Shown here piece by piece: positions 15,293 through 19,529 of a stretch of 38,385 nucleotides of DNA. Within the stretch, counting starts at the first letter, position 1. Every line of letters starts with the position of its first letter. This stretch comes from a virus (taxonomy: Duplodnaviria > Caudoviricetes). The stretch spans positions 1 through 38,385 of IMG/VR virus record IMGVR_UViG_3300033434_000395. One strand, given 5' to 3'. A program made the position numbers and the translations under genes. The notes under the pieces are model-generated. The model saw nothing but the letters and a program-made list of their open reading frames with translations. It did not search any database and was not told where the DNA came from.

Positions 15293-15652
15293 ATGGCTGA
15301 ACTATCCCGTGATGAAGCGTTGTTTGGGTTGACCCAGGCCTTCCTTGTGATGGCCGGAATGTTGCAGCGGCATGGCCTGCTTGATGAACAACTGCTGCAA
15401 GCAATGCTGAGGCGACAAGCTGAAATTGCGCCGGTTGGCAGCCAGATGCTTGAAAAGCTGGCTGGCCAGCTGCTGGCAGATTATCGACATGAGCAATCTC
15501 ATACCGGCCTCACGCAGCAAGGCGGCTGTCAATCGACTTCGGATCGGCGATTTCGCCCTGCTTCAAGCCAAGCAAAACCGCGATTTTGTGCGACTGGCCG
15601 CGCAAGCATTTCTTGCGCTCGGCAAGAACTTCAAAAACGAGGTTTGGAGTAA
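15293..15652 (+). CDS. Possible antisense-oriented small protein in the early region
   Basis: SD GAGG; possible TTGCAG-N18-GATAAT promoter; helical N-terminal 70 aa. The 3' 143 nt overlap the Ner-like gene. Confidence 0.4.
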   Translation: MAELSRDEALFGLTQAFLVMAGMLQRHGLLDEQLLQAMLRRQAEIAPVGSQMLEKLAGQLLADYRHEQSHTGLTQQGGCQSTSDRRFRPASSQAKPRFCATGRASISCARQELQKRGLE

Positions 15653-15737
15653 AACCGTGGCTGATGGCCCACGATGTGATCGAAATCCCCTTGCGAAGGA
15701 ATTCGGCACGTACATCATCAGGGGTGCGAGTCGCCAT
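15510..15737 (-). CDS. Ner/Cro-like DNA-binding protein (BcepMu gp16-like)
   Basis: RTPDDVRAEFLRKGISITSWA...RGQSHKIAVLLGLK; first gene of the early operon, divergent from the repressor. Confidence 0.88.
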   Translation of the reverse strand: MATRTPDDVRAEFLRKGISITSWAISHGFTPNLVFEVLAERKKCLRGQSHKIAVLLGLKQGEIADPKSIDSRLAA

Positions 15738-15794: not shown

Positions 15795-15823
15795 ATTATG
15801 GGACATAAATGTCCCTATGTAAA
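15795..15823 (-). promoter_or_regulatory. Early promoter Pe with palindromic operator in its spacer
   Basis: Minus strand TTTACA-N17-CATAAT; perfect palindrome GGGACAT-AA-ATGTCCC at 15800-15815; degenerate copy GGGGTTTTTGTGTCCC at 15824-15839. Confidence 0.82.
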
Positions 15824-15832
15824 GGGGTTTTT

Positions 15833-16273
15833 GTGTCCCAAACGACAGGTGACCGAATTAAATTACTCCGAGCCACGCGCGGAGTCGCTGAATTTGCCGA
15901 GACGCTTGGAGTAAATAGAAAGACTGTGACGCGTTGGGAGGCGAACGAGGCTCTTCCTGACGGCGCGTCCCTGTTAATTCTCAGAGAAAAATTCGGCGCC
16001 GATCCAGGGTGGCTACTTACAGGCATCGGCGAGACCCCAAGCAGCACAACCCTTACAGCAGATGAGCTGCAGTTGCTTGAACTCTTTCGGGCGGCACCAC
16101 TCGCCGGCAAGATGGCAGCCGTTGGCGCCCTGCAAGGTGTTCAAGGAATAAGCGCGATGCAAAAGCCGGTCAAACAAGTTATCAAGGGGGGCGTTAGCGG
16201 CGCGCTGACACAGACAGGCAACATTACGTATACGAACGCTTCTGATAGCAAAAGCGGTAAAGGAAAATCGTGA
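15833..16273 (+). CDS. Prophage repressor (XRE HTH, no S24 peptidase domain)
   Basis: GDRIKLLR...AEFAETLGVNRKTVTRWEANEALPD...DPGWLLTG; divergent from Ner. Start could be GTG 15833 or ATG 15809. Confidence 0.88.
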   Translation: MSQTTGDRIKLLRATRGVAEFAETLGVNRKTVTRWEANEALPDGASLLILREKFGADPGWLLTGIGETPSSTTLTADELQLLELFRAAPLAGKMAAVGALQGVQGISAMQKPVKQVIKGGVSGALTQTGNITYTNASDSKSGKGKS

Positions 16274-16812
16274 TTACCCAGCGCATCGACACCGTCAAAA
16301 AAGGCGGCAACGTTACCCAGAATGGAGATATCATCGTTTGCCCCGGTGTTGAGGATTGCCCACTTAAAGGCAATACCCCAGAATCAGAACGCCAAAAGAA
16401 ATTCGCCAAAGATACCGGCATCTGGTGCCCACCAGAAACACGCGAAACACTTGAACGCCTGCTGTCAAACCACCGTTTCACGGCCAAAGAATTGGCTCAA
16501 GCCTGGCGAGTCAGGTCTTTAAGCTACGACCCGGACACCGGAAAACTTAAAACCTTTACCCCGAAGCTGGAGTTGTGGTTCGGCATCGTGATGCTGACCC
16601 TGTTCGCGTTTTACATAGCAATCATGGCGTCCGGCATGATCCTGGTTCGCCCTGGGGTTTACGCAAATCTGCAATTCTTTACGACCATTGCAGGATTTCT
16701 TGGCATGGCTTGGGCGGTCGTACATTTCCATCTTGCGCCACGGCGCACCGCAGTCCGGGTGCGTTCGATTTTATTAGCGAAGCATGAGGATTCCCCGGCG
16801 CAAAACTCTTAA
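16270..16812 (+). CDS. Accessory 2-TM membrane protein coupled to the repressor
   Basis: GTGA overlap with the repressor stop; two C-terminal hydrophobic helices. Confidence 0.75.
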   Translation: MITQRIDTVKKGGNVTQNGDIIVCPGVEDCPLKGNTPESERQKKFAKDTGIWCPPETRETLERLLSNHRFTAKELAQAWRVRSLSYDPDTGKLKTFTPKLELWFGIVMLTLFAFYIAIMASGMILVRPGVYANLQFFTTIAGFLGMAWAVVHFHLAPRRTAVRVRSILLAKHEDSPAQNS

Positions 16813-16829
16813 CACCAACAATAACAACA

Positions 16830-17456
16830 ATGCGTGCTAAACAAACGGTTGGATCGGATGTATCCGGTGAGATGGCAAACCGGGATATAAAGCATCACAA
16901 CCACTCACACATCAAGACCGGCCACATAACCGGCAGCCACAACATCATTGGCCATCAGGGTGCCATCCATCTGCAGATGGCCGCCAGCCCCGTCATCAAG
17001 GTCGTTATCCAACCGGGTGCTCAACACATCAGTGAAGCGCACAAGTTCGAATTACGGGAACTGGTGAATGAAATCATCCGGCTTGAAGCCACCATCAAAA
17101 AGAGTCCAAAACGGCACGCTGCCGTCTGGTCCGCACTCACGGCCAAGCTCAAGGTCACCAGTTACCACCTGATTCCGGCCGACGCATTTGAACGAGCCAA
17201 GGCCTATTTGCAAACCTGGTGCGCGAGGCTACGCGCCTCGAAGAACGCGCCGACCAAAGACCCAGACTGGCGCAACAGCCGCTACAGCTTCATCCATGCC
17301 GCTGCCGCAGAAATCGGCAGAAATGAAGACATACCGAAACTACTGGCTGAGCGTTACAGCGGCCGCTCACTGAAAGACCTGTCCAGCCTTGAGCTGGAAA
17401 ACGTATATCGCATTATCGCAAGCTGGAAGAAACAGGCGCGCCAGAATGGCGCATAG
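16830..17456 (+). CDS. Accessory protein with G/H/N-rich N-terminus and ORF6C-like helical domain
   Basis: VWSALTAKLKVTSYHLIPADAFERAKAYL resembles the ORF6C antirepressor-associated motif; A-rich leader. Confidence 0.7.
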   Translation: MRAKQTVGSDVSGEMANRDIKHHNHSHIKTGHITGSHNIIGHQGAIHLQMAASPVIKVVIQPGAQHISEAHKFELRELVNEIIRLEATIKKSPKRHAAVWSALTAKLKVTSYHLIPADAFERAKAYLQTWCARLRASKNAPTKDPDWRNSRYSFIHAAAAEIGRNEDIPKLLAERYSGRSLKDLSSLELENVYRIIASWKKQARQNGA

Positions 17457-17511: not shown

Positions 17512-18045
17512 ATGCGGAAATATTTGGCCGCGCTTGCCACGACCGTTTTCATGATTGCCGGGTGTTCTGACGGCACGCCCAACGTTTCGATAGGCGCCCC
17601 GCTAGACCAGTACATCAAAAGCATTGCACCCAATGTAAAGGAATTGCGGCTTCACCAAATGGCGGTCGGGACAGACGGTAAATTCAAGAAGGAAGGTGGT
17701 AAGGCCACCTATAACGTCGAGCTACATATCACCCAGCCATACCAGTGGGACAGCGCCCAGGACTGGAACAGTCTGGCCGGGCGCATTCACAAGACCGCAA
17801 AGCTTGCCTTTGAGCGTGATGACGTTGACCGGCTATGGGTGCGGGTGTTCGACAAATCCGGCGCAGACTGGGCGGTGCTGACCTATCACCGCAAGGAGCT
17901 GCCGCAGAACTTCAAGGAATTGAGTTATCAGGAATCCTTCGCTTTCGCCAATGCCGTGCCAGCGATTGTGCAGAGCCAGCGGCCGCTGTGTGAGTTTTAT
18001 GCCAAATATCAGTCAGCGCGACCACTCAAGAACCATGGGTGTTAA
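17512..18045 (+). CDS. Accessory lipoprotein
   Basis: SD GGAGG; MRKYLAALATTVFMIAG-C lipobox. Confidence 0.8.
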   Translation: MRKYLAALATTVFMIAGCSDGTPNVSIGAPLDQYIKSIAPNVKELRLHQMAVGTDGKFKKEGGKATYNVELHITQPYQWDSAQDWNSLAGRIHKTAKLAFERDDVDRLWVRVFDKSGADWAVLTYHRKELPQNFKELSYQESFAFANAVPAIVQSQRPLCEFYAKYQSARPLKNHGC

Positions 18046-18075
18046 TGTAATACAAACCATTGAAAGGAATTGTTG

Positions 18076-18948
18076 ATGAGCCGAAGCAGAACCATTCTGA
18101 TTGCAGCTTTGAATATTGCCATGCACAAGCCGCACTCTCCGAAGCGTTATGTTGAAATGTTCTTTGACGCCTACAAACTTGGCGCCAAGGTCAAACTCAG
18201 CAATGTCCACTACTCCGTGCTCGGATCGGCCTACCAAGAAAACCCAGATGACGCGCTGGATCCTATCAACGGTGAGATCTGGCGATTCGTAAAAATCGAT
18301 CCTAATGAAACGTGGTTTAACACAAGCACAAAAGACGTCGCAACAGAATCCGAGTTGCGAGAAGTCAGCATTCCTGATCACCTACTAGCCCATATGCAGC
18401 GGATCCCATATGTATTCCACCCCAAAACTCACCGGCTTTATTTCATCACAAAAGACGGGAAAACCAGCATGGGAGCAGGAACGCTAAAAAAAATACTCAA
18501 CAACATTTTGGGCCGCCTTGTAGCGGAAAAACGCTACCCGGAAATCGAAGTAACGGTCGTTCCAGAAGCTGAATCCGTTGAGCGAATCTTAAGCATGCCT
18601 TATCTGCAAAAATTGCATATTGAGTTAGTTCGCCCCAATGCGGATGACGGCGTCGATGAAGAAAGGAGATTCATGGAAAAAATGGCTAATGAGCGCGCAA
18701 AAAAGTACACCCAAAGCCTGATTTCCGAGCGGAACGGAAGCCTTGCGCCAGACGAACAGACCAAATCACTTGCGCGCATGGCGGCACATAATGGTAAAGT
18801 AGTAGGCGAAGGGCGTGACGCGACGGGTGGAAAATTGATTGAATCCACAACGCAGTCCCCGATGATTCAGTCGGCACTTGTTGACCCAAATATTGAATCA
18901 ACAAGGAATGTTTTGACACGCACGGCAACTCACCTTGACGCCGCATGA
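18076..18948 (+). CDS. DUF4747-like protein
   Basis: LNIAMHKPHSP..Y, G.IWRFVKID....WFN, FHPKTHRLYF and L.IELVRPNADD pattern recognised as DUF4747-like; SD AAAGGA; AT-richer than flanking phage genes. Confidence 0.72.
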   Translation: MSRSRTILIAALNIAMHKPHSPKRYVEMFFDAYKLGAKVKLSNVHYSVLGSAYQENPDDALDPINGEIWRFVKIDPNETWFNTSTKDVATESELREVSIPDHLLAHMQRIPYVFHPKTHRLYFITKDGKTSMGAGTLKKILNNILGRLVAEKRYPEIEVTVVPEAESVERILSMPYLQKLHIELVRPNADDGVDEERRFMEKMANERAKKYTQSLISERNGSLAPDEQTKSLARMAAHNGKVVGEGRDATGGKLIESTTQSPMIQSALVDPNIESTRNVLTRTATHLDAA

Positions 18949-19529
18949 CCAATGTAGAAAAAAAGTGGTTTGATCAATACTCTGGGGCATTTGAAAACAT
19001 CAAACGTTACTGGGGTGCATATGGCGGGCGCAGTGCTGTGCTGCGCTCACCATATTTTCATGCGGCGGTGCTACTTCTTCTCGTTACCTGGAATAGCTGG
19101 TCGCAACCTAAATGGTGGGAACAAGTCATTAGTGTCATGCCAAACTTGCTTGGGTTCACCTTGGGCGGGTTTGCAATATTCATCGGATTTGGTGATGAAA
19201 AATTTCGAGCTATTCTGGCCGAGCCTGATGAGGATAAAAACAAACCAACTATTTATGTTTCGTTGTGCGCGGCATTCGTGCATTTCATCCTTATTCAGTT
19301 GGCAGCCTTAATTTACGCCATCATTGTCGGCTCATTACATTTTTATGTGCCCTGGCCGACATTCGTTGAAAAACTGATCCCTTATCTAAATCTGTTATCC
19401 GGGTCGGTCGGCTTTTGCCTATTCCTTTATGCCCTCACGTCATTGGCTGCGGTAACAATGCACGTTTTCAGAATTGCGCATTTGTATTCCGTACACCAAA
19501 GATTCCGGCAGTCAGATACGACCGACTAG
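18945..19529 (+). CDS. Multi-pass membrane protein coupled to the DUF4747-like gene
   Basis: ATGA overlap; YW.AYGG..A.L.SPY and P.LLGFTLGGFAIF motifs; about 4 hydrophobic helices. Confidence 0.8.
   Translation: MTNVEKKWFDQYSGAFENIKRYWGAYGGRSAVLRSPYFHAAVLLLLVTWNSWSQPKWWEQVISVMPNLLGFTLGGFAIFIGFGDEKFRAILAEPDEDKNKPTIYVSLCAAFVHFILIQLAALIYAIIVGSLHFYVPWPTFVEKLIPYLNLLSGSVGFCLFLYALTSLAAVTMHVFRIAHLYSVHQRFRQSDTTD

What the first reader, a model, noticed from the sequence alone, without database searches (positions are those of the whole stretch)
15833..17456. Repressor and two downstream proteins share a short amyloid-like motif: candidate homotypic signalling switch for lysogeny
Seen: the repressor ends in KQVIKGGVSGALTQTGNITY (16172-16231). 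The translationally coupled 2-TM protein starts with TQRIDTVKKGGNVTQNGDIIV, sharing G-x-[LV]-T-Q-x-G-[ND]-I with different codons. The next protein starts KQTVGSDVSGEMANRDI...ITGSHNIIG, sharing KQ-x5-VSG with the repressor, before an ORF6C-like domain. The repressor lacks an S24 autocleavage domain. Established: RHIM/HET-s/BASS-type amyloid signalling pairs place one G/Q/N-rich beta-arch motif at the C-terminus of one protein and the N-terminus of an adjacent gene's product. Inference: a membrane sensor and an antirepressor-like partner co-polymerise with or sequester the repressor, giving SOS-independent induction or repressor-triggered abortive infection. I know of no description of this for phage repressors, but the motifs are short.
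Basis: partly seen in the sequence, partly recalled or inferred. Interest (0 to 1): 0.85.

Follow-up and report, generated by a model that had tools for sequence, protein, structure and literature searches.

The report
Repressor tail matches two partners' heads
In this dormant bacterial virus the master repressor ends in a short glycine/asparagine/glutamine-rich peptide that also begins the next two proteins, and in many related phages tail and head change in step, which suggests the proteins likely stack together through this peptide as an untested, amyloid-like switch that would control when the virus wakes.

Summary
Taken alone, the window's matches are weak (shuffle p 0.12 and 0.013), but the pattern is general. 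Among 67 phage repressors picked without the motif, tail and next-gene head occur together (11 both, 51 neither, 5 discordant; Fisher p 2e-8). A phylogeny-corrected version of this presence test was underpowered. Tails resemble their own partner's head more than other heads (42.0 vs 26.4, p<1e-5), beyond body similarity (partial r 0.37). Synonymous sites show no recent DNA copying (0.43 vs 0.41). Unrelated partner families carry the same head. Some phages fuse HTH, motif-like linker and the third protein's domain. That domain is ORF6C/Flk_N-like, not a shown antirepressor. B3 and BcepMu have such pairs. Composition and layout match amyloid signalling motifs, but there is no NLR or Bell domain and no Pfam RHIM hit. 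Best reading: partners are likely sensors that co-stack with the repressor tail and would switch repression. My searches found no description in print. This scan found the pattern before in other genomes (8 notes seen).

The parts
15510..15737 (-). Ner/Cro-like small HTH gene, divergent from the repressor; first early gene
   Evidence: phrog_925 E 1.8e-24; same position in BcepMu and B3
15795..15823 (-). Sigma-70-like promoter consensus pointing to the early genes; inferred target of repression
   Evidence: 10 of 12 match, the only site found, while shuffles average 3.7, so it is not above chance
15833..16273 (+). XRE/HTH_3 immunity repressor, 146 aa (the open frame also allows ATG 15809): HTH, helical domain, flexible tail; no S24 domain
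   Evidence: SD-like sequence before GTG 15833; relatives found with a related repressor as query include BcepMu gp17 and B3 ORF18
16172..16231 (+). Repressor C-terminal motif (G/N/Q/V/I-rich, predicted beta-arch), followed by a basic end
16270..16812 (+). Membrane partner, 180 aa: motif head, small helical domain (PES..F..TGIWC), beta-hairpin, helical hairpin with one clear and one weaker TM helix; 4-nt overlap with the repressor
   Evidence: 109 proteins (itself included); AF2 mean pLDDT 87, head under 70; no Pfam, PHROG, PADLOC or NCBIfam hit
16276..16338 (+). N-terminal motif of the membrane partner (TQxG[ND]I variant)
16830..17456 (+). Soluble partner, 208 aa: two motif repeats, ORF6C/Flk_N-like three-helix bundle, GemA-like helical end
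16839..16892 (+). First motif repeat of the soluble partner (family consensus KQxFxxxVxGxVAGRDI)
16908..16976 (+). Second repeat; 16 of 42 family members carry [IV]Q[IVL]G in the first 65 residues, the window's copy does not

Best explanation
The repressor's tail and the heads of the two co-encoded proteins carry one co-varying short motif that likely lets them stack into a shared beta-arch (amyloid-like) assembly, so the membrane protein and the ORF6C/Flk_N protein would act as plug-in sensors whose clustering would pull the repressor off its operators and induce the prophage without RecA cleavage. Shown: shared motif, operon layout, co-occurrence, co-variation, protein-level selection, fusion forms, no S24 domain. 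Inferred: direct binding (about 0.8); beta-stacking as the binding mode (about 0.65); partners as sensors and repressor as the switched component (about 0.55). The last step rests on three points: in BASS pairs the N-terminal motif sits on the receptor and the C-terminal motif on the effector; several unrelated partners converge on one repressor; and the largest partner family has a receptor-like layout (motif, helical domain, often a TM helix, C-terminal Cys-containing domain). The signals are unknown: envelope stress or superinfection for the membrane protein, and replication or ssDNA stress for the soluble one, are guesses.
For: Presence coupling in a motif-independent sample: 11 both, 2 tail only, 3 head only, 51 neither of 67, Fisher p 2e-8; 12/5/4/46 at 3 bits and 8/3/4/52 at 8 bits; control ends 0 of 67 at 5 bits. 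Cognate vs non-cognate score 42.0 vs 26.4 over 42 clusters, top-3 rank in 23 of 42, p<1e-5. Partial Mantel 0.37, p 2e-4, n 38; tail~repressor body 0.14, head~partner body 0.10. Within the window's membrane family: 48.6 vs 30.4, p 2e-5, window pair rank 2 of 17. Identical codons at identical residues 149 of 348 (0.43) against 0.41 expected. The two window partner bodies show no detectable homology (hhalign prob 0.1%). Fused HTH-linker-ORF6C repressors: Gregale, L208, L209. Motif relocated to a C-terminus in P0017 and on a 71-aa protein between a tail-less repressor and a head-bearing membrane protein in L277. Cores enriched in G 2.3x, N 3.6x, Q 1.8x, V 1.7x, I 1.6x and depleted in P and L, as reported for BASS. 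G-phi-Q-phi-G in the tails of L062 and L094 with [IV]Q[IV]G heads. Heads are low-confidence in monomer models. 16 of 38 partners overlap the repressor stop.
Against: No binding, fibril or phenotype data. The window's own pair is weak: rank 9 of 42 overall, shuffle p 0.12, and its own head ranks 22 of 108 family heads against its tail. Orphan tails exist (L070, L164, L170; L007 doubtful; in L009 only the second gene has a head). The presence test is not phylogenetically independent: the tail label is clustered on the tree (10 changes vs 17.4 shuffled) and only 2 independent pairs exist on well-supported branches, p 0.5. 0 of 20 motif peptides hit Pfam RHIM, HET-s or PP models. K is not depleted (1.02), unlike BASS. 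Fused repressors keep a motif-like linker, which also fits a plain oligomerisation role. Partners are probably made throughout lysogeny, so a trigger is needed and none is identified.
Confidence: 0.45

Rival explanations
1. Constitutive, finite co-repressor complex: the motif is a small beta-solenoid oligomerisation domain that replaces the CI C-terminal domain. It builds the active repressor oligomer and docks the ORF6C/GemA-like protein and a membrane tether; there is no switch-like polymerisation.
For: Fused HTH-linker-ORF6C repressors keep the linker; translational coupling in 16 of 38 loci suggests fixed stoichiometry; a GemA-like end in 5 of 42 members at E<=0.05.
Against: Most sampled repressors of this HTH family have no tail (51-54 of 67) and some tails have no partner; several unrelated partners are exchangeable; heads are unstructured in monomer models.
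Confidence: 0.22
2. Abortive infection or exclusion module: the repressor tail (own repressor released from DNA, or a matching incoming phage's repressor) templates the membrane protein, which then damages the membrane, as in Bab/Agp.
For: Bab/Agp is a prophage-encoded amyloid Abi pair; 24 of 38 partners have a hydrophobic TM-like segment; the genes sit in an accessory slot next to a lipoprotein and a low-GC gene pair.
Against: No Bell/HeLo, NLR, TIR or convincing PADLOC hit; the motif polarity would make the repressor the effector; 14 of 38 partners score under the TM threshold (some truncated); the fold search of the membrane protein gave only generic helical hairpins.
Confidence: 0.18
3. 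The tail is a protease-control element as in phage Mu Rep (ClpX motif exposed on a signal), and the partner heads are decoys or adaptors for the same third-party binder rather than binding the repressor.
For: Mu repressor is described as degraded by ClpXP through a hidden C-terminal motif (PMC10584840, passages); the tails end in basic, flexible residues.
Against: A conserved host binder would hold the motif constant across loci, yet it varies locus by locus in step; the motif works at either terminus or internally.
Confidence: 0.08
4. Non-functional by-product: heads arise by local duplication of the repressor's 3' end, serving as recombination joints for cassette shuffling, plus low-complexity convergence.
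For: The window's pair alone is not significant; a few loci show 75-78% nucleotide identity over the aligned core (L010, L037, L175).
Against: Synonymous identity overall equals codon-usage expectation, 0.43 vs 0.41, non-cognate 0.39-0.40; a folded-state-free head is retained in most of 109 divergent membrane-family proteins (read by eye).
Confidence: 0.07

Closest known systems
Bacterial amyloid signalling sequences BASS1-10 in Bell/NLR gene pairs (bioRxiv 10.1101/2020.01.06.895854; passages and section 9 read)
   Same: About 20-25 residue motif at the C-terminus of one protein and the N-terminus of the adjacent gene's product; G/N/Q/V/I enrichment; pseudo-repeats; 4-bp gene overlap in the type example; split and all-in-one architectures.
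   Different: No NLR or Bell domain; the carrier is a phage XRE repressor and the partners are ORF6C/Flk_N or small membrane proteins; hosts are Proteobacteria where named; up to three genes share the motif; amyloid formation untested. 'phage', 'HTH' and 'repressor' have 0 occurrences in that paper's main text.
Bab/Agp (BASS11) antiphage Abi system of E. coli (bioRxiv 10.1101/2024.11.07.622273; abstract, sections 4 and 10 read)
   Same: Prophage-encoded adjacent genes sharing a short glycine-kinked motif; one component linked to the membrane.
   Different: Agp is a 1094-aa TPR-GreA/B-PIN sensor and Bab a Bell-like killer; neither domain is here, and the output here is inferred to be transcriptional. 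I did not align the BASS11 sequence itself; extended data and supplementary tables were not seen.
RHIM / PP / BASS3 core G-phi-Q-phi-G
   Same: Present in the tails of L062 and L094 with [IV]Q[IV]G heads, and as [IV]Q[IVL]G in 16 of 42 members of the soluble partner family.
   Different: Absent from all three window proteins; 3 of 113 sampled tails and 1 of 109 membrane-family heads; no Pfam RHIM hit.
Flk (Fluke) flagellar regulator, Pfam Flk_N PF27202, and ORF6C PF10552
   Same: The soluble partner's helical domain is homologous to the cytoplasmic domain of the BcepMu gp18-like partner family (hhalign 96.6%, E 5e-10); 4 members hit Flk residues about 24-170 at E 2e-13 to 2e-15; Atlas neighbours carry ORF6C and Flk_N. 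[quoted passage not shown]
   Different: The window protein hits Flk only at E 0.039, has no anchor and is far below the equivalog cut-off; Flk acts on flagellar export.
B3/BcepMu-type transposable phage immunity region; Mu Rep tail control
   Same: Same gene order (divergent Ner-like gene, XRE repressor, accessory genes); B3 ORF18/ORF20 and BcepMu gp17/gp18 carry matched tail and head.
   Different: Those partners are annotated only as hypothetical or membrane proteins; Mu Rep control is by ClpXP, and no partner sharing its tail is mentioned in the passage read.

Membership tests
BASS amyloid signalling pair | Shared short motif at the C-terminus of one protein and the N-terminus of the adjacent gene's product | tested here: met
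BASS amyloid signalling pair | Composition enriched in Q, N, G, V, I and depleted in K, P, L | tested here: met
   met for 7 of 8 residues; K is neutral at 1.02
BASS amyloid signalling pair | One partner is an NLR (NB-ARC/NACHT) or TPR-GreA/B-PIN receptor | tested here: not met
   all three proteins are 146-208 aa and have no such Pfam or NCBIfam hit
BASS amyloid signalling pair | Effector is a Bell/HeLo-like or other cell-death domain | tested here: not met
   the C-terminal-motif protein is an XRE HTH repressor; no convincing defence-family hit
BASS amyloid signalling pair | Motif forms cross-beta fibrils and cross-seeds | not testable with these tools
   needs bench work; ArchCandy is not available; no complex model was obtained
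RHIM/PP/BASS3 | G-phi-Q-phi-G core or Pfam RHIM match in the window's proteins | tested here: not met
   present in some relatives only
LexA/lambda CI-type repressor | C-terminal S24 autopeptidase domain | tested here: not met
   146 aa with about 45 flexible C-terminal residues
XRE-family immunity repressor of B3/BcepMu-like transposable phages | HTH_3 gene divergent from a Ner-like gene and the transposase operon in a Mu-like prophage | tested here: met
XRE-family immunity repressor of B3/BcepMu-like transposable phages | Binds operators and confers immunity | not testable with these tools
   inferred from position and family
ORF6C-domain protein | Pfam PF10552 above the curated cut-off | tested here: met
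   24.6 bits against 22, partial coverage; 40 of 42 members at E<=0.05
Flk equivalog | NF007987 above 353 bits with a C-terminal anchor | tested here: not met
   13.2 bits, no anchor; domain-level relative only
Sak/Red-beta C-terminal SSB-binding bundle | Structural match standing clear of generic helical bundles, with SSB-tail binding | tested here: inconclusive
   8qe9_1A Z 8.9, rmsd 1.6 over 66 residues; Red-beta CTD Z 5.9; the tool warns that Z under about 13 can be generic for bundles; no sequence match; chain identity inferred

The most novel reading that the evidence does not exclude
Many Mu-like and P2-like proteobacterial prophages decide between lysogeny and lysis with an amyloid-type switch: interchangeable membrane and cytoplasmic sensors, each keyed to their own repressor by a co-evolving 20-residue code, template the repressor into a cross-beta polymer and so induce the prophage independently of SOS. 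It would be amyloid signalling with a transcription factor as effector, already present in the laboratory phages B3 and BcepMu.
Probability: 0.35. Interest if true: 0.92.

Novelty: new variant of a known kind. Interest (0 to 1): 0.75.

Why it matters
How repressors without an autocleavage domain are switched off, as in Mu-like and P2-like prophages, is largely open; the one paper passage I read on Mu says the precise mechanism is unknown. A co-evolving peptide shared by repressor and partners points to a specific contact that can be tested cheaply with synthetic peptides, E. coli GFP-foci assays and phage B3. If it is amyloid, bacterial amyloid signalling extends from cell death to gene regulation. 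If it is a finite beta-stack, it is still an unannotated repressor-partner docking code found in roughly a fifth of the sampled repressors of this family (13 of 67 tails at 5 bits, 17 at 3 bits), and it gives a role to several families of hypothetical phage proteins, including Flk-related ones.

Tried and rejected
No sequencing run was listed for the locus, which is no evidence on expression. The word-index search found no relative of the membrane protein; the full HMMER search found 108 others. Genome samples gave few loci: class 4 of 399 scored and family 4 of 300, all weak and dropped except G006. The body pattern gave many chance matches (60 loci without a profile hit listed). A scan for the TQxG variant gave 7 loci, none a repressor cassette, so no second TQxG tail/head locus was found; 14 of 109 heads have T[QK]xG but only this locus's tail among 183 tail entries has T[QK]xG[ND]. 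A motif-first scan (GQVAGRDI) gave 8 loci: 4 phage cassettes, 4 apparent chance frames, none on a defence enzyme. Fold searches: Foldseek PDB and viral gave nothing at E<=0.001; the membrane protein matched only generic hairpins, and its small soluble domain was barely tested. The independent-pairs test was underpowered and used a quick tree because the careful one did not finish. Recent DNA duplication was rejected. Homology between the two partner bodies was not detected. Literature searches with no description of the pattern in the listings; term searches inside PMC12261475 (0 hits for phage, HTH, repressor) and the 2026 review PMC13506858 (no phage repressor among the 12 of 20 passages shown). 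The library lacks most subscription papers, and bioRxiv supplements (BASS tables, BASS11 domain lists) were not seen and could list HTH-linked pairs.

Full report
Context. The window is a Mu-like myovirus prophage with the B3/BcepMu layout: DDE transposase, AAA B protein, Gam, Mor, Mu portal, capsid and contractile-tail genes. A Ner-like gene at 15510-15737 (-) faces away from an XRE repressor at 15833-16273 (+). The repressor is followed by a 180-aa membrane protein overlapping its stop by 4 nt (16270-16812) and a 208-aa protein (16830-17456).

Observation. Every quoted motif is present at the stated place, and no S24 domain is detected. Alone, the matches are weak: tail vs membrane head scores 26 (shuffle p 0.12) and tail vs third-protein head 34 (p 0.013). 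A profile trained only on heads of 148 partner-family proteins puts the two heads and the repressor tail at ranks 1, 2 and 4 of 14,572 ORF ends of the genome. That profile includes residues next to the membrane protein's body, which helps its rank 1. A second profile recovered only the third protein's head.

Families. The membrane protein has 108 relatives in the 50% representatives; most begin with a variant of the motif (GQVAGRDI, GQITQNGD, QAAGRDI, GQVADSI and others), and a few lack it (read by eye). The soluble protein has 41 relatives with consensus head KQxFxxxVxGxVAGRDI and a second repeat; in P0017 the motif has moved to the C-terminus (where one row in two was shown). Its body is ORF6C-like (40 of 42 members) with a weak GemA-like end (5 of 42). 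It is homologous to the cytoplasmic domain of a larger partner family that includes BcepMu gp18, and 4 members of that family hit the Flk N-terminal region at E 2e-13 to 2e-15 (Flk_N). The membrane protein's body shows no homology to either. AlphaFold2 leaves residues 1-45 of the soluble protein under pLDDT 50 and the membrane protein's first 30 residues at 47-64, with confident helical bodies. The ORF6C bundle's best structural match is 8qe9_1A 139-204 (Z 8.9, rmsd 1.6, 66 aligned). I infer this chain is the Sak C-terminal bundle, which works with the SSB tail according to PMC11846896 (passages); at this Z it is a lead only.

Co-occurrence. A DNA pattern for the HTH body, independent of the motif, returned 120 viral loci out of about 1,600 estimated. 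113 were distinct and complete; 80 had flanks and 67 of these could be scored (13 dropped: truncated, duplicate, short or no next gene called). At 5 bits, 11 had tail and head, 2 tail only, 3 head only and 51 neither (Fisher p 2e-8); C-terminal ends of the next genes scored 0 of 67. One tail-only case, L175, was a missed short gene that has the head. Relatives are not independent: the tail label needs 10 changes on a quick tree against 17.4 when shuffled, and the independent-pairs test had 2 pairs and is inconclusive.

Co-variation. From all loci, 69 motif-positive ones (68 by score, 1 added by hand) collapsed to 59 distinct pairs and 42 clusters, including 4 orphan or miscalled cases. Cognate scores average 42.0 against 26.4 +/- 9.4; the own partner ranks first in 10 and in the top three in 23 of 42; permutation p<1e-5; the window's pair ranks 9. 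With those 4 removed (n 38), tail similarity tracks head similarity (rho 0.38) more than repressor body (0.14), and the partial correlation is 0.37 (p 2e-4). In the largest partner family (n 14; the script's label 'TGIWC' there is wrong, it is the gp18/Flk_N-like family) the scores are 43.1 vs 27.7, partial 0.26, p 0.033. In the window's own membrane family (17 loci) they are 48.6 vs 30.4, p 2e-5, and the window's pair ranks 2. Examples: B3 ISVTGDGNRTAGRDFHE / IEVTGSNNIVAGRDFIE; L184 FKMGDVAQIISGG / YKVGDVAQLITGG; L062 GGVQVGHAGG / CAIQVGRADG; L010 GQNTNTGKII / GQSTNGGDII. Repressors with an HTH close to the window's carry different tails or none (L001, L038, P0154, P0159).

Not a recent copy. 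At identical residues of cognate pairs 149 of 348 codons are identical (0.43), against 0.41 from each locus's codon usage and 0.39-0.40 for non-cognate pairs. The likeness is therefore kept at protein level.

Modularity. Pseudomonas phage Gregale's annotated CI-like repressor and loci L208 and L209 fuse HTH, a motif-like linker (L209: KQVIQGNVSGVG) and the ORF6C domain. Three-gene chains with the motif occur in L036, L037, L039, L043-L045, L075 and L167. In L277 a tail-less repressor is followed by a 71-aa protein ending in the motif and then a head-bearing membrane protein. Counter-examples: orphan tails in L070, L164 and L170.

Mechanism. Shown: a shared, co-varying, protein-level-selected motif at facing termini of co-encoded proteins, with BASS-like composition. 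Inferred: such locus-specific matching is what a homotypic contact produces, and the G/N/Q-rich strand-turn pattern with a disordered monomer suggests beta-arch stacking. By BASS polarity the head-bearing proteins are receptors and the tail-bearing repressor is the effector, which fits several exchangeable partners per repressor. I therefore favour triggered co-assembly that removes the repressor from DNA (0.45), over a constitutive co-repressor complex (0.22), an Abi module (0.18), a protease-related tail (0.08) and a by-product (0.07). No binding model could be obtained and no expression data were listed.

Comparison and novelty. It works like a BASS or Bab/Agp motif pair but is not a member: no NLR, Bell or TGP component, and no RHIM core or Pfam RHIM match in the window. 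Seven literature searches and term searches in three papers showed no description for phage repressors; subscription papers and bioRxiv supplements were out of reach. Eight earlier notes of this scan report the same pattern in other genomes; I count them as repeats, not support. What this locus adds is a three-gene case with two unrelated partners, the fusion and adaptor forms, and the Flk_N link. Verdict: real feature, new variant of a known kind, interest 0.75.

Noticed in passing
window 18070-19529 (+): DUF4747 gene (Pfam E 2e-75) overlapping a 194-aa membrane-protein gene (phrog_20580), GC about 0.46 against 0.52-0.63 around; a similar DUF4747-like gene lies a few genes behind the repressor in L062/L111. 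Possible accessory defence pair; no PADLOC hit.
   Followed up: partly
window 17512-18045 (+): Predicted lipoprotein (signal ending IAGC, read by eye) right after the cassette, with no convincing family hit; lipoprotein-like genes often fill this slot in related loci, possibly exclusion factors.
   Followed up: no
L277 520-1274, L185, L166, L163, L034 (RS138), proteins P0017, P0031, P0033: Repressors with a helical C-terminal end and no tail (ending in e.g. ANVIRLVRTAA) are followed by proteins that start with a short charged helix before the motif, suggesting a second, helix-based way to couple repressor and partner.
   Followed up: partly
L147, L182, L204, L222 (gene after the repressor): Partners homologous to the N-terminal half of the flagellar regulator Flk (E 2e-13 to 2e-15); Flk may be a domesticated phage partner protein, or these partners may contact the flagellar export gate.
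   Followed up: partly
window 16270-16400 and its TQxG-type relatives: Two cysteines (C24, C30) directly after the motif and C53 are invariant in the 10-protein alignment A4; possible metal or redox control of the head.
   Followed up: no
window 15293-15652 (+): Small ORF (phrog_37333) on the repressor strand inside the early region, overlapping the end of the Ner-like gene; BcepMu gp14 lies in the same position.
   Followed up: no
L149 and L073, just after the repressor: The partner gene appears frameshifted (L149) or cut short to 55 aa (L073) while the motif head is still readable.
   Followed up: no
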